A stretch of 33,753 nucleotides of DNA. Source: a virus. This document shows positions 13,880 to 19,451 of the stretch, in pieces. The stretch lies in the UHGV virus genome UHGV-0114643; one strand, 5' to 3'. The first letter of the stretch is position 1. Every line of letters begins with the position of its first letter. The notes under the pieces were generated by a model that saw only the letters and a program-made list of their open reading frames with translations, was not told where the DNA came from and searched no databases. Position numbers and translations under genes: made by a program.

Positions 13880-13909
13880 TTGACAGACACTAAAAAATAG
13901 TGTTATAGT
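13880..13909 (+). promoter_or_regulatory. sigma70-like promoter (TTGACA-N18-TATAGT) about 30 nt upstream of the first tRNA
   Basis: Consensus hexamers read directly. Confidence 0.5.
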
Positions 13910-14493: not shown

Positions 14494-14581
14494 GCGTCGT
14501 TATCCCGTAGATGGAAGCGGTGGTGACTGTAAATCACTTGTCATTATGACTCGGTAGGTTCGACTCCTTCACGGCGCACCA
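14494..14581 (+). tRNA. tRNA-Tyr (anticodon GTA), long variable arm
   Basis: Acceptor GCGTCGT/ACGGCGC, anticodon arm GGTGA-CTGTAAA-TCACT, variable-arm hairpin, T-arm, CCA encoded. Confidence 0.8.
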
Positions 14582-14813: not shown

Positions 14814-14940
14814 CAGAAGACCGTTTACAGCAAACAATAAACAATCTATTTCTCTGGTAAAGAAAAGGCGAAGGTTCGATTCCTTCACACGTTACGGCGT
14901 GTTGGTGTAATGGAAGCACTTAAGATAAATACGGTCTGGT
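14814..14940 (+). repeat. inter-tRNA element d (127 nt) with internal T-arm mimic (GAAGG-TTCGATT-CCTTC) and D-arm-like hairpin; candidate Y-RNA-like ncRNA
   Basis: Same termini as a-c; tRNA-like motifs present but no acceptor stem pairing, so not a tRNA. Confidence 0.5.
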
Positions 14941-15325: not shown

Positions 15326-15400
15326 TGTGGGTTAGCATAAATGGTAATGCAAACGGCTGATAACCGTTAGAAGAGGGTTCGATACCCTCACCTACAACCA
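15326..15400 (+). tRNA. tRNA-Ile (anticodon GAT)
   Basis: Acceptor TGTGGGT/ACCTACA, D-stem GCAT/ATGC, anticodon arm AACGG-CTGATAA-CCGTT, T-arm GAGGG-TTCGATA-CCCTC, CCA encoded. Confidence 0.85.
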
Positions 15401-15414
15401 ATTTCATAAAGTTG

Positions 15415-15443
15415 TTGACATTCAGATGTGACCACTTTAAGAT
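15415..15443 (+). promoter_or_regulatory. internal promoter-like element (TTGACA-N17-TAAGAT) inside the tRNA array
   Basis: Exact -35, 17-nt spacer, 4/6 at -10. Confidence 0.35.
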
Positions 15444-15676
15444 AACCTTAGTTTTCGTTAGCGTAGCGTCTATTTTAAAAACTTAAAAATAAATGCAAAC
15501 GATAATGTTTTTCTGGCAGTAGCTTAATAGGCTAAACACCAGCAGGGTATTCCAACTCCCTGTTAAAGAATTTGGCGTACTAGCCCACGGTATGATTAAT
15601 AAAGTGGGCAATATTCTAAAGAGCATCCCTTAAGGGGCTTGGCTTAAATGCAATGAGTGCTCTTTAAAATATTAAT

Positions 15677-17141: not shown

Positions 17142-17156
17142 AATTAGGAGATTCCT

Positions 17157-17369
17157 ATGAAGCCTTATGGTAGACATGGTAAAGTTGAAATTGCAAGTTG
17201 TGGTTGCTGTGCTTCTCACGATGGTGAAGAAGATTACTACAAGTGGCGTACAGACCATCGTAAACGCTTTCTCAGAAGAGATAAGAAGAAAGCTAGACAG
17301 GAATCTCGAAAGAATATTGCAGAATTAGTTCAAATGGATAGAACAGCAATCTACGAAGTTGTTTGTTAG
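17157..17369 (+). CDS. small basic Cys-containing hypothetical protein, 70 aa; last ~17 codons overlap tRNA-Arg
   Basis: ATG with AGGAGA 7 nt upstream; ORF in track; overlap makes the true extent uncertain. Confidence 0.35.
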   Translation: MKPYGRHGKVEIASCGCCASHDGEEDYYKWRTDHRKRFLRRDKKKARQESRKNIAELVQMDRTAIYEVVC

Positions 17370-17395
17370 GGGTTCGAATCCCTTATTCTGCACCA
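17319..17395 (+). tRNA. tRNA-Arg (anticodon ACG)
   Basis: Perfect acceptor GCAGAAT/ATTCTGC, D-stem GTTC/GAAC, anticodon arm GCAAT-CTACGAA-GTTGT, T-arm AGGGG-TTCGAAT-CCCTT, CCA encoded. Confidence 0.8.
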
Positions 17396-17413
17396 ATTTT
17401 AGAAGGTAATTAT

Positions 17414-17641
17414 ATGCGTAAACTCATTATTGAAAGGCATAAAGATGCTGACAAGATTGAAACAACACAAGTTGGGGACACTGACTTCATTCTTGTAGGT
17501 TGGAAATGTGACCCAATAGCAGCTATGAAGGTTGTTCATGGTTTTGCAGGAATTGAATTTAATCAAATCATATTTGAAACGCTATTACCAGAAAATCAGG
17601 ATACGTGTAATAACGCATATGTCCTGACAAGAGTTCGTTAG
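17414..17641 (+). CDS. hypothetical protein, 75 aa (paralogue A: MRKLIIERH ... DTCNNAYVLTRVR); start moved to the ATG with a proper RBS
   Basis: About 60% identical to 17686..17913; AGAAGG upstream of ATG. Confidence 0.5.
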   Translation: MRKLIIERHKDADKIETTQVGDTDFILVGWKCDPIAAMKVVHGFAGIEFNQIIFETLLPENQDTCNNAYVLTRVR

Positions 17642-17667
17642 GGGTTCGAATCCCTTATTCTGCACCA
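17633..17667 (+). pseudogene. tRNA 3' fragment (T-arm + acceptor 3' strand + CCA), identical to the 3' end of tRNA-Arg(ACG); duplication scar
   Basis: 30 of 31 nt identical to 17365-17395; no complementary 5' acceptor strand or D-arm upstream. Confidence 0.55.
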
Positions 17668-17685
17668 AATTTAAAAGGGTAACTT

Positions 17686-17913
17686 ATGTTTAAACTCATA
17701 GTTGAAAAACACCCAGAAGATGACAAGCTTGAAACAGGGAGATTTGGAGATACTTTCTTTATCAGAGTTGGCTGGAAAGCTGACCCATTAGAAGTTAGAA
17801 AGATTGTCTACAACTTTGCTGGTTTGGAATTAAAGCAAGTCATCTTTGAAACAATGTTGCCAGAAAATAAAGATACATGCAATAACGCATATATTCTTAC
17901 AAGAGTTAGTTAG
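17686..17913 (+). CDS. hypothetical protein, 75 aa (paralogue B: MFKLIVEKH ... DTCNNAYILTRVS)
   Basis: ORF in track; AAGGG upstream; paralogous to 17414..17641. Confidence 0.5.
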   Translation: MFKLIVEKHPEDDKLETGRFGDTFFIRVGWKADPLEVRKIVYNFAGLELKQVIFETMLPENKDTCNNAYILTRVS

Positions 17914-17987
17914 GGGATTAGTTTACAAGGTTAAAACCTCGGTCTTTGAAATCGAAGAAGTTGGTTCAATTCCAACATCCCCCGCCA
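17912..17987 (+). tRNA. tRNA-Gln (anticodon TTG); starts inside the stop codon of the preceding ORF
   Basis: Acceptor AGGGGAT/ATCCCCC (A1:C72), D-stem GTTT/AAAC, anticodon arm TCGGT-CTTTGAA-ATCGA, T-arm GTTGG-TTCAATT-CCAAC, CCA encoded. Confidence 0.8.
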
Positions 17988-19427: not shown

Positions 19428-19451
19428 GACGGTCTCTGCACCGTCTTTTTT
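19428..19451 (+). terminator. rho-independent terminator (GACGG-TCTCTGCA-CCGTC + TTTTTT)
   Basis: Perfect 5-bp GC-rich inverted repeat followed by T6, 40 nt before the next gene. Confidence 0.65.

What the first reader, a model, noticed from the sequence alone, without database searches (positions are those of the whole stretch)
17157..17913. Tandem duplication of a (tRNA 3' half + small ORF) unit inside the tRNA array
The 3' part of tRNA-Arg(ACG) (17365-17395) recurs almost identically at 17633-17667 as an orphan fragment. Each copy is followed by a similar RBS/leader and a 75-aa ORF (17414-17641 and 17686-17913, ~60% identical, both ending ...DTCNNAY[V/I]LTRV). Junctions share the microhomology GTT.GTTAGGGG, which is also the start of tRNA-Gln at 17912. 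A further small Cys-containing ORF (17157-17369, strong RBS) overlaps the 5' two-thirds of tRNA-Arg. This looks like recent recombination at tRNA sequences carrying a small-protein family.
Basis: seen in the sequence. Interest (0 to 1): 0.6.

Follow-up and report, generated by a model that had tools for sequence, protein, structure and literature searches.

The report
Recombination scar in phage tRNA array
In the tRNA gene cluster of a Felix-O1-like (Mooglevirus) phage, recombination at a 12-base match between two tRNA genes placed two long-diverged versions of a small accessory gene one behind the other and left a dead piece of tRNA-Arg between them, which is a clean but ordinary example of how phages shuffle genes.

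Summary
A 272-nt unit (17361-17632 and 17633-17904, 74% identical) lies between tRNA-Arg(ACG) and tRNA-Gln(UUG). It consists of the 3' part of tRNA-Arg, a leader and a 75-aa ORF. The window is a Mooglevirus (Ounavirinae), 98.5% identical to Citrobacter phage BSwM KMM4.

Both 75-aa ORFs (phrog_14202) and the 70-aa ORF (phrog_10765) are real genes under purifying selection. Their function is unknown.

This is not a duplication that later diverged. Copy a is 99.6% identical to the single copy of phage ESh21, and copy b is 91% identical to the single copy of phage SFPB. The two ORFs differ at dS of about 1, yet the orphan tRNA piece matches tRNA-Arg at 32 of 32 bases. The best reading is an unequal crossover at the shared 12-mer GTTnGTTAGGGG, which stacked two existing alleles. 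The tRNA piece is a scar.

Four genomes share the cassette at 99-100% identity inside more diverged flanks. A fifth genome carries the collapse product, a single a/b hybrid ORF.

The 70-aa ORF is an 80-aa gene cut by an 82-nt deletion. It now reads into tRNA-Arg, and the tRNA-encoded tail shows no protein-level constraint.

Verdict: a new member of a known kind, of modest interest.

The parts
17146..17150 (+). AGGAG ribosome-binding site of ORF70, 6 nt before the ATG
   Evidence: Read directly in the sequence.
17157..17369 (+). ORF70 (phrog_10765). Codons 1-54 belong to the gene itself; codons 55-70 and the TAG stop are tRNA-Arg read in frame.
   Evidence: PHROG E=2e-49. pN/pS is 0.15 for codons 1-54 and 0.91 for codons 55-70. 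Frame controls give 2.56 and 0.51. Variable sites by codon position are 3/4/15. An 80-aa form with its own stop exists in phage Silverhawkium.
17319..17395 (+). tRNA-Arg(ACG), intact
   Evidence: ARAGORN. Rfam tRNA 61.3 bits.
17361..17372 (+). Junction 12-mer J1, GTTTGTTAGGGG (variable loop and 5' T stem of tRNA-Arg). It contains the TAG stop of ORF70.
17361..17632 (+). Repeat unit 1: tRNA-Arg 3' part, leader a and ORF75a
   Evidence: the repeat finder family D1. The 17396-17632 part is 99.6% identical to the single copy of ESh21.
17414..17641 (+). ORF75a (phrog_14202), allele a. RBS GAAGGT at 17402-17407.
   Evidence: PHROG E=1e-33. 98.7% aa identity to ESh21 and ESh22. dN/dS against allele b is 0.24.
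17457..17464 (+). TTGAAACA, the crossover site in copy a that gives the collapsed a/b hybrid. Its partner in copy b is 17729-17736.
   Evidence: The Logan contig L025 equals unit a up to this site and unit b after it, at 100% on both sides.
17633..17644 (+). Junction 12-mer J2, GTTCGTTAGGGG. This is the recombination joint and contains the TAG stop of ORF75a.
   Evidence: The left side equals the ORF75a end of ESh21 and the right side equals the tRNA-Arg T arm.
17637..17668 (+). Orphan 3' part of tRNA-Arg (T arm, 3' acceptor strand and CCA), not a gene
   Evidence: 32/32 identical to 17365-17396. No ARAGORN call. Rfam tRNA only 19.6 bits, E=2.3. KMM4 carries a C-to-A change at the loop-closing T-stem pair.
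17633..17904 (+). Repeat unit 2: orphan tRNA-Arg 3' part, leader b and ORF75b
   Evidence: the repeat finder family D1. The 17669-17911 part is 90.9% identical to SFPB, where the same leader follows an intact tRNA-Arg.
17686..17913 (+). ORF75b (phrog_14202), allele b. RBS AAGGG at 17675-17679. The stop TAG is made of T17911 plus the first two bases of tRNA-Gln.
   Evidence: PHROG E=1e-37. 97% aa identity to SFPB_122. dN/dS against SFPB and KPS64 is 0.05-0.06.
17905..17916 (+). Junction 12-mer J3, GTTAGTTAGGGG (ORF75b end and 5' end of tRNA-Gln)
17912..17987 (+). tRNA-Gln(UUG), intact. It is the right-hand border of the variable slot.
   Evidence: ARAGORN. Rfam 56.6 bits.
13880..13909 (+). Context: promoter-like site (TTGACA, 18 nt, TG, TATAGT) just before the first tRNA of the array
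   Evidence: Consensus scan, 11 of 12 matches. Function not tested.
19428..19445 (+). Context: terminator-like hairpin with T run after the last tRNA of the array
   Evidence: Consensus scan. Function not tested.

Best explanation
The slot between tRNA-Arg(ACG) and tRNA-Gln(UUG) in the tRNA array of Ounavirinae phages holds a small accessory gene (ORF75, phrog_14202) and varies between genomes. In Moogleviruses the gene exists as diverged alleles, bounded on each side by conserved tRNA sequence.

The last codons and stop of ORF75, together with the first bases of tRNA-Gln, read GTTnGTTAGGGG. The variable loop and T stem of tRNA-Arg read almost the same. I infer that an unequal crossover at this 8-12-nt match occurred, most simply between two co-infecting phages. 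One carried allele a (ESh21-like) and the other carried allele b (related to SFPB/KPS64). The crossover joined '...ORF75a-GTTCGTTAGGGG' to 'TTCGAATCC... (rest of the donor's tRNA-Arg)-leader b-ORF75b-tRNA-Gln'.

Because the match contains the TAG stop, every gene survived intact: tRNA-Arg, ORF75a, ORF75b and tRNA-Gln. The only by-product is a 32-nt orphan 3' piece of tRNA-Arg, which is a scar and not a gene.

The cassette then spread among related phages by ordinary homologous recombination. It can collapse again by recombination between the two diverged copies, giving hybrid alleles.

The neighbouring ORF70 has a similar history. An 82-nt deletion at a TGC microhomology removed the 3' end of an 80-aa gene, so translation now runs 16 codons into tRNA-Arg and stops at the same TAG.

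Shown: the anatomy, the progenitor and product states, coding constraint, and sharing of the cassette. Inferred: the crossover event itself, its direction, and co-infection as the setting. What ORF75 and ORF70 do remains unknown.
For: 1. The repeat and the three 12-mers are as described.

2. Both alleles exist as single copies in the same slot. ESh21 and ESh22 carry allele a (99.6% nt, 98.7% aa). SFPB, KPS64 and ESh19 carry allele b (91% nt, 95-97% aa). In SFPB, leader b directly follows an intact tRNA-Arg, so the orphan piece, leader b and ORF75b were contiguous in a donor of that type.

3. dS between a and b is about 1.0, but the orphan differs from tRNA-Arg at 0 of 32 bases. At the 74% identity of the unit, that has a probability of about 0.74^32, or 7e-5 (my arithmetic). 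The joint is therefore much younger than the divergence of the alleles.

4. The joint reads ESh21-type ORF75a end on its left and tRNA-Arg T arm on its right.

5. The orphan is not held as a tRNA. ARAGORN makes no call, Rfam gives 19.6 bits against a threshold of 29, and the MFE fold forms no acceptor stem. KMM4 has C-to-A at the loop-closing pair of the T stem. That this pair (G53-C61) is near-invariant in tRNAs is from general knowledge.

6. Four carriers (window, KMM4, IMGVR_UViG_3300045988_004299, ULRN01024863) were found. For two of them (the IMG/VR and ULRN contigs), the ORF70-to-tRNA-Gln segments are 98.9-100% identical to the window, except the 77-nt tRNA-Arg at 96.1% (3 differences), while their outer flanks are 89-94% identical. 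KMM4 is about 98% identical to the window throughout and does not show this contrast.

7. Collapse product: Logan contig SRR25035320_1444 has one ORF75 that equals unit a up to TTGAAACA and unit b afterwards, at 100% on both sides.

8. The ORFs are genes. ORF75 gives pN/pS 0.29 in frame against 0.96 and 1.54 out of frame. ORF70 codons 1-54 give 0.15 against 2.56 and 0.51.

9. ORF70: Silverhawkium has the 80-aa form with its own TAA stop 1 nt before tRNA-Arg. The 70-aa form differs by an 82-nt gap flanked by TGC. 41 of 42 phage records have the fused form. The tail encoded by the tRNA has pN/pS 0.91.

10. Precedent: in phage T6, a tandem repeat of a tRNA plus a small ORF forms at a microhomology between tRNA-Tyr and the end of segB, and it collapses without selection (PMC13096335).
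Against: - The actual b donor has not been sampled. The best match is only 91% at nt level, and both flanks of the window resemble ESh21. An insertion of unit b into an ESh21-like genome therefore cannot be told apart from a deletion of unit b out of a window-like genome.
- The 11-12 of 12 match between the ORF75 end and the variable-loop region of tRNA-Arg is itself unexplained. It could mean that orphan-containing states are older and recurrent.
- Gene conversion from tRNA-Arg, 272 nt upstream, could also keep the orphan identical.
- No recombination was observed directly.
Confidence: 0.73

Rival explanations
1. An old duplication within one genome was followed by divergence of the two ORF copies. 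The tRNA piece was kept identical by gene conversion or selection. Today's single-copy phages arose by loss of one copy or the other.
For: Both losses are mechanically easy. A deletion between J1 and J2 uses 44 nt of near-identity. A deletion between J2 and J3 uses the 12-mer. A collapse product exists. All single-copy alleles end in the same AAGAGTTCGTTAGGG(G), which resembles tRNA-Arg sequence and hints at an older tRNA-Arg-derived junction.
Against: Only 4 carriers were found, and the two tested against diverged flanks share the cassette at about 99-100%. About 40 other Mooglevirus records are single-copy, empty or carry DUF7338. 0 of 32 differences against dS of about 1 would need continuous conversion. 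KMM4 already carries a disruptive change in the orphan. Felixounaviruses and HP1 have one ORF75 followed by DUF7338 and no orphan.
Confidence: 0.12
2. A homing-endonuclease break in the T arm drove a segmental amplification, as SegB does in phage T6. It was selected because more, or more varied, ORF75 helps the phage, for instance against a host defence.
For: In T6, SegB cuts inside tRNA genes at RAWTSGAAC, which by my reading is the reverse complement of the T-loop GTTCGAAT. This yields tandem tRNA-plus-ORF repeats at a microhomology (PMC13096335). The joint here lies at the T stem/T loop. Relatives such as SFPB carry HNH genes inside the same tRNA array, 0.5-2 kb upstream.
Against: There is no HNH or GIY-YIG gene in the window's array. 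None was found among 20 ORFs scanned with Pfam, and there is no tblastn match to the SFPB enzymes. There are two diverged copies, not a ladder of identical units. No defence-related function is known for ORF75.
Confidence: 0.1
3. The orphan tRNA-Arg 3' half is a working RNA element. It could be a tRNA-like processing or stabilising signal for the mRNA of ORF75a or ORF75b, or a decoy for tRNA-targeting nucleases.
For: It is identical to the functional tRNA over 32 nt in three carriers. The T-arm hairpin and ACCA are retained. A full-length but weak tRNA-model match exists at 17596-17664, and CAGGAT at 17597-17602 could pair with the 3' acceptor strand in 6 of 7 positions. It gives ORF75b the same upstream context as in its native locus.
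Against: The Rfam E-value is 2.3. The predicted fold pairs CAGGAT locally instead. 6 of 7 pairs within a 20-nt search range is expected about 1 time in 4 (my estimate). KMM4 breaks the loop-closing T-stem pair. Single-copy relatives and the collapsed hybrid do without the orphan.
Confidence: 0.04
4. The orphan tRNA piece is an attachment-site remnant: an integrating element that targets a tRNA 3' end brought in the ORF.
For: A duplicated 3' tRNA part next to an inserted gene is the classic signature of integration at a tRNA gene (general knowledge).
Against: No integrase was found among the 20 ORFs of at least 100 aa scanned with Pfam. The tRNA belongs to the phage. A 61-nt query spanning the orphan and the following leader has no match in 5,426 E. 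coli genomes. The unit is simply a second allele of the resident gene with its native leader.
Confidence: 0.01

Closest known systems
SegB-dependent segmental amplification in the tRNA region of phage T6 (Chihara et al. 2026, PMC13096335)
   Same: A head-to-tail repeat inside a phage tRNA cluster. The unit is tRNA sequence plus a small ORF. The junction lies at a microhomology between a tRNA and the 3' end of the ORF. The repeats are unstable and collapse.
   Different: In T6 the unit holds a full tRNA-Tyr and a truncated endonuclease gene, forms ladders of identical copies, needs SegB nuclease activity, and was selected in the laboratory against Septu. Here there are two diverged alleles and only a tRNA fragment. 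There is no endonuclease gene in the window, the carriers are natural genomes, and no selective agent is known.
Mosaic evolution of tailed phages by illegitimate recombination at short matches, followed by homologous exchange of cassettes (general knowledge of phage genomics)
   Same: Short sequence identity at gene borders serves as the joint. Allelic cassettes are bounded by conserved flanks. The same cassette sits in otherwise diverged genomes.
   Different: The conserved flanks and the joint are tRNA genes, and the stop codons of three ORFs lie inside tRNA-derived sequence. Progenitors, product and collapse product are all sampled.
tRNA 3'-end duplications at integration sites of temperate phages and genomic islands
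   Same: An orphan 3' tRNA part next to an extra gene.
   Different: No integrase. The tRNA is the phage's own and does not match E. coli. The extra gene is an allele of the neighbouring gene.
tRNA punctuation and gene-tRNA overlaps in animal mitochondrial genomes (general knowledge; a lead only)
   Same: Protein genes abut or overlap tRNA genes in one long transcript, and stop codons sit at or across the tRNA border.
   Different: Nothing about RNA processing was tested here. In the window the complete TAG is present in the DNA.
PHROG families phrog_14202 (ORF75) and phrog_10765 (ORF70)
   Same: Full-length matches at E = 1e-33 to 2e-49.
   Different: Both families have unknown function, so membership does not explain what the proteins do.

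Membership tests
Tandem segmental duplication by unequal recombination at a microhomology | Head-to-tail repeat units in register | tested here: met
   272-nt units at 17361-17632 and 17633-17904, without gaps, 74% identical.
Tandem segmental duplication by unequal recombination at a microhomology | The same short sequence at both outer borders and at the internal joint | tested here: met
   GTTnGTTAGGGG at 17361, 17633 and 17905.
Tandem segmental duplication by unequal recombination at a microhomology | Single-copy progenitor arrangement in relatives | tested here: met
   ESh21 and ESh22 carry allele a only. SFPB, KPS64 and ESh19 carry allele b only.
Tandem segmental duplication by unequal recombination at a microhomology | Copies identical or nearly so at birth | tested here: not met
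   The ORF parts have dS of about 1, yet the tRNA piece is 32/32 identical. Hence the reading 'two alleles stacked' rather than a self-duplication.
Homing-endonuclease (SegB-type) driven amplification | Endonuclease gene in or next to the amplified unit | tested here: not met
   No HNH or GIY-YIG domain in 20 window ORFs. No tblastn match to the HNH proteins of SFPB. Such genes do exist in relatives' arrays.
Homing-endonuclease (SegB-type) driven amplification | Double-strand break at the junction site | not testable with these tools
   Needs cleavage mapping. Only the position of the joint at the T stem/T loop is suggestive.
Functional tRNA gene (for the piece at 17633-17668) | Complete cloverleaf with acceptor stem and anticodon arm, scoring above the Rfam tRNA threshold | tested here: not met
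   No ARAGORN call. Rfam 19.6 bits against 29, E=2.3. The MFE fold has no acceptor stem.
Integrase-mediated insertion at a tRNA gene | Integrase nearby and identity of the repeat to a host tRNA 3' end | tested here: not met
   No integrase domain among the 20 scanned ORFs. No match in E. coli genomes. Citrobacter genomes were not searched.
phrog_14202 (ORF75a, ORF75b) | Full-length profile match | tested here: met
   E = 1.1e-33 and 1.2e-37, covering residues 1-75 and 1-74 of a 76-position profile.
phrog_10765 (ORF70) | Full-length profile match | tested here: met
   E = 2.1e-49, 70 of 70 positions.
Protein-coding gene (ORF70, ORF75a, ORF75b) | Excess of synonymous change, specific to the reading frame | tested here: met
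   pN/pS is 0.15 (ORF70 codons 1-54) and 0.29 (ORF75) in frame, against 0.5-2.6 out of frame. Translation itself was not tested.

The most novel reading that the evidence does not exclude
The tRNA-embedded stop codons may not be an accident of packing. They could couple expression of the small proteins to tRNA maturation. RNase P cleavage at the 5' ends of tRNA-Arg and tRNA-Gln would strip ORF70 of its last 16 codons and its stop, and ORF75b of its stop. Full-length protein could then come only from transcripts not yet processed, and cleaved transcripts would be non-stop mRNAs. The orphan fragment, which is not a tRNA, would shield the stop of ORF75a from this. The stacking would therefore change how the first copy is expressed as well as its dose.
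Probability: 0.08. Interest if true: 0.55.

Novelty: new member of a known kind. Interest (0 to 1): 0.3.

Why it matters
It gives a complete natural series for one small recombination event in a virulent phage:

- an empty slot;
- allele a alone;
- allele b alone;
- ORF75 followed by DUF7338;
- DUF7338 alone;
- the a+b tandem with its scar;
- the collapsed a/b hybrid.

The series shows that conserved tRNA sequence can serve as portable homology arms and as illegitimate joints for shuffling accessory genes in tRNA arrays. It complements the recent laboratory finding of endonuclease-driven amplification in the tRNA region of phage T6.

There is also a practical point for annotation. The small ORFs that overlap tRNA genes here are real genes by evolutionary criteria. 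ORF75b, ORF70 and the orphan piece are missing from the closest GenBank record.

It does not open a long-standing question, and the function of the proteins stays unknown.

Tried and rejected
1. **Function of ORF75.**
   - Pfam, NCBIfam and a PDB sequence search gave nothing.
   - A first AlphaFold model from 6 close sequences was poor (pLDDT 59).
   - A second model from 24 sequences was confident (pLDDT 92.5; strand-strand-strand-helix-strand-helix).
   - The afdb50 library was not available.

2. **Wider family.** An HMM search of 1.8 billion representatives found 5 proteins. One of them, P0011, is a 2,415-aa repeat protein matched in 17 stretches of low-complexity repeats. I rejected it as spurious.

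3. **Function of ORF70.** No Pfam, NCBIfam or PDB match.

4. **Orphan as tRNA-like element.** The Rfam match is weak and the fold does not support it.

5. **Hairpin 17596-17627 at the end of ORF75a (z = -2.76).** Other alleles keep it only in part, with mismatches in HP1 and SFPB, and Felixounavirus sequences differ completely. I did not pursue it as a conserved element.

6. **Attachment-site idea.** No match in E. coli genomes.

7. **Endonuclease in the window.** None found.

8. **Flank affinities to identify the donor.** Both flanks resemble ESh21, so the direction of the event cannot be read from them.

9. **Literature.** The Felix O1 and Felixounavirus genome papers and the KMM4 preprint do not describe this feature.
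Full report
**Where the window comes from.** The 1.3 kb around the finding matches 255 phage records, all Ounavirinae. The best is Citrobacter phage BSwM KMM4 (genus Mooglevirus) at 98.5% over the full length. The window carries 25 tRNA genes on the + strand between 13937 and 19270. A promoter-like site lies at 13880-13909 and a terminator-like hairpin at 19428-19445. The array is therefore probably one transcription unit, though that was not tested.

**The observation.**
- tRNA-Arg(ACG) is at 17319-17395 and tRNA-Gln(UUG) at 17912-17987.
- A 272-nt direct repeat, 17361-17632 and 17633-17904, is 74% identical without gaps.
- Within it, 17365-17396 and 17637-17668 are identical at 32 of 32 bases. 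These cover the T arm, 3' acceptor strand and CCA of tRNA-Arg.
- Each copy continues into a short leader with a Shine-Dalgarno-like motif and a 75-aa ORF (17414-17641 and 17686-17913). The two ORFs are 64% identical.
- The 12-mer GTTnGTTAGGGG occurs at 17361, 17633 and 17905. In each case its TAG is the stop codon of an ORF: ORF70, ORF75a and ORF75b.
- ORF70 (17157-17369) has an AGGAG 6 nt before its ATG and overlaps the first 51 nt of tRNA-Arg.

**Are the ORFs genes?** Yes, by evolutionary criteria.
- ORF75a and ORF75b match phrog_14202 (E = 1e-33 and 1e-37), and ORF70 matches phrog_10765 (E = 2e-49). Both families are of unknown function.
- For 14 distinct ORF75 sequences, pN/pS is 0.29 in frame against 0.96 and 1.54 in the other two frames. 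Variable sites by codon position are 26/16/46. Pairwise dN/dS is 0.05-0.26.
- For 16 distinct ORF70 sequences, codons 1-54 give pN/pS 0.15 against 2.56 and 0.51 out of frame, with variable sites 3/4/15. The 16 codons that are tRNA-Arg read in frame give 0.91. That part evolves as a tRNA, not as a protein.

**The slot in relatives.** The slot between tRNA-Arg and tRNA-Gln takes many states:
- empty, 13 nt (Michonne, and also Silverhawkium, Moogle and Sf13);
- ORF75 allele a alone (ESh21, ESh22, one IMG/VR contig);
- allele b or related alleles alone (SFPB, KPS64, ESh19, Sf17-19, ESh20, 3HA14);
- ORF75 followed by a 185-aa DUF7338 membrane protein, with overlapping stop and start (HP1, and the Felixounaviruses wV8, EC6 and UAB_Phi87);
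- DUF7338 alone (pEC-M719, SUSP1, SUSP2, Sl26);
- two ORF75 copies with the orphan tRNA piece (the window, KMM4, IMGVR_UViG_3300045988_004299, and metagenome contig ULRN01024863, found by searching for the joint itself).

A more distant phage group, with ORF75 at 32% identity, also has ORF75-DUF7338 inside a tRNA array and directly upstream of tRNA-Gln(UUG). The gene is therefore a long-term resident of this position.

**Duplication, or two alleles stacked?**
- The leader plus ORF75a is 99.6% identical to the single copy of ESh21.
- The leader plus ORF75b is 90.9% identical to SFPB, where that same leader follows an intact tRNA-Arg.
- dS between a and b is about 1.0, yet the orphan differs from tRNA-Arg at none of 32 bases. 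If the piece had diverged like the rest of the unit, that would have a probability near 0.74^32, about 7e-5.
- The joint reads as the ESh21-type end of ORF75a (…AGAGTTCGTTAGGGG) continued by the T arm of tRNA-Arg (TTCGAATCCC…).

The simplest account is one unequal crossover within GTTnGTTAGGGG. One partner was the ORF75a-end/tRNA-Gln-start of one genome and the other was the variable loop/T stem of tRNA-Arg in a genome carrying allele b. Because the shared 12-mer contains the TAG, all four genes stayed intact and only a 32-nt orphan was created. The crossover is inferred, not observed. The exact donor of b is not in the databases. The flanks do not tell whether unit b was gained by an ESh21-like genome or lost from a window-like one.

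**What happened afterwards.**
- For the IMG/VR and ULRN carriers, the segments from ORF70 to tRNA-Gln are 98.9-100% identical to the window, apart from 3 differences in the 77-nt tRNA-Arg (96.1%). The regions outside are only 89-94% identical. This indicates one origin followed by transfer through homologous recombination. KMM4 is about 98% identical to the window throughout, so it does not show the contrast.
- A contig assembled from run SRR25035320 has a single ORF75 between intact tRNA-Arg and tRNA-Gln. It equals the window's unit a up to TTGAAACA (17457-17464) and unit b from the matching site (17729-17736) onward, at 100% on both sides. That is the product expected if the tandem collapses by recombination between its two diverged copies.
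- In KMM4 the orphan has a C-to-A change at the loop-closing pair of the T stem, as expected for a sequence under no tRNA constraint.

**Is the orphan anything more than a scar?**
- ARAGORN does not call it, and Rfam gives a full-length tRNA alignment of only 19.6 bits (threshold 29, E = 2.3).
- The predicted fold pairs the upstream CAGGAT locally rather than with the 3' acceptor strand.
- A 61-nt query spanning the orphan and the following leader has no match in E. coli genomes, so an attachment-site origin is not supported.
- I rate a functional role as unlikely but not excluded.

**ORF70.** Phage Silverhawkium, and a second cluster in the protein database, carry an 80-aa form. It ends …NIAKDFRESVLSRRDTNEELKLYGVLIG with its own TAA, 1 nt before tRNA-Arg. 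The 70-aa form differs by an 82-nt gap flanked by TGC. This fuses codon 55 to the first base of tRNA-Arg, and reading continues to the TAG in the T stem. Of 42 phage records, 41 have the fused form. The direction (deletion) is inferred from the neutral evolution of the tRNA-encoded tail. The N-terminal 54 codons remain constrained, so the truncated protein is probably still used.

**Mechanistic context.** Chihara et al. (PMC13096335) showed that the T6 homing endonuclease SegB cuts within tRNA genes. Its preferred motif, RAWTSGAAC, is by my reading the reverse complement of the T-loop GTTCGAAT. The cuts drive tandem amplification of a tRNA-Tyr + segB unit at a microhomology, and the repeats collapse without selection. 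The joint here sits at the T stem/T loop, and relatives such as SFPB have HNH genes inside the same array. However, the window has no such gene, and its two copies are diverged alleles rather than a ladder. An endonuclease-made break is a possible trigger, not a supported one.

**Unexplained.** Only AGGGG of the 12-mer is accounted for by the two tRNAs. The ORF75 C-terminal codons also match the variable-loop region of tRNA-Arg (11-12 of 12). All single-copy alleles share the same last 16 nt despite dS of about 1 elsewhere. This suggests earlier exchanges between these sites, or repeated cycles of duplication and collapse. I could not resolve it.

**Verdict.** It is a natural, well-documented instance of a known process: illegitimate recombination at a microhomology, followed by homologous spread and collapse. 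It occurs in a place, a phage tRNA array, where such events have recently been shown to matter. It is a new member of a known kind, with interest about 0.3.

Noticed in passing
window 14820-14894 (+): An extra tRNA-like sequence scores 28.8 bits on the Rfam tRNA model (threshold 29). Its anticodon loop CUGGUAA gives anticodon GGU (Thr), and the acceptor stem has two non-standard pairs. ARAGORN does not call it. It could be a decaying or unconventional 26th tRNA.
   Followed up: partly
window 14496-14576 (+): A degenerate tRNA-Tyr(GUA)-like sequence with a long variable arm and a weak T stem (22.8 bits). It lies between tRNA-Asn and tRNA-Asp, the same place as the 'pseudo Tyr' listed for Felix O1 (PMC3185647).
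   Followed up: partly
window 15340-15581 (+): Sub-threshold matches to permuted tmRNA (34.7 bits against 47) and alpha tmRNA (20.3 bits) start in tRNA-Ile and run into the 277-nt gap before tRNA-Arg(UCU). A promoter-like site lies at 15415-15443.
   Followed up: no
L026 (Shigella phage Silverhawkium MK562505) 1501-1743; window 17157-17369: The ORF70 family exists in an 80-aa form with its own stop 1 nt before tRNA-Arg. The common 70-aa form is that gene minus 82 nt, now ending inside the tRNA.
   Followed up: yes
L027 (Shigella phage SFPB) 2390-2734 and 1219-1623: Two free-standing HNH endonuclease genes are inserted between tRNA genes of the same array. The first matches PF01844 at 24.5 bits and the second only weakly. 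Both are absent from the window.
   Followed up: partly
L028-L030 2501-3285; L003 814-1598; L007-L009: ORF75 and a DUF7338 membrane protein form a pair with overlapping stop and start. The pair always lies inside a tRNA array just upstream of tRNA-Gln(UUG), in three diverged phage groups.
   Followed up: partly
window 17596-17627: A 32-nt hairpin in the last codons of ORF75a (z = -2.76 against shuffles). Copy b keeps most pairs, one through a double change (C-G to A-U), but HP1 and SFPB have mismatches and Felixounavirus sequences differ.
   Followed up: partly
window 17361-17372, 17633-17644, 17905-17916: The end of ORF75 resembles the variable-loop region of tRNA-Arg beyond what the two tRNAs explain (11-12 of 12). 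All single-copy alleles share the same last 16 nt despite dS of about 1 elsewhere. The origin of this similarity is unresolved.
   Followed up: partly
L001 (KMM4), L006 (SFPB), L017 (KMM2), at the 5' end of tRNA-Gln(UUG): These genomes have GGG instead of GGGG at the start of tRNA-Gln. KMM4 also has one C fewer in the 3' strand, while SFPB and KMM2 do not. This is either a real acceptor-stem polymorphism or homopolymer sequencing error.
   Followed up: no
P0004 (75 aa): This ORF75 variant looks like a mosaic, with a b-like N-terminal half and a-like residues (VVHGFAG, EF, QIIFET) further on. This would fit repeated exchange between alleles.
   Followed up: no
L001 (KMM4 GenBank record OP902293) 557-769 and 1086-1313: The closest public record annotates only ORF75a. 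ORF70, ORF75b and the orphan tRNA piece are unannotated.
   Followed up: yes
window 17319-17395: tRNA-Arg differs at 3 of 77 positions from the other carriers (D loop, D stem, anticodon stem), although the sequence on both sides is 99-100% identical. It is closest to the HP1 type (98.7%). This points to a very short exchange tract inside the tRNA.
   Followed up: no
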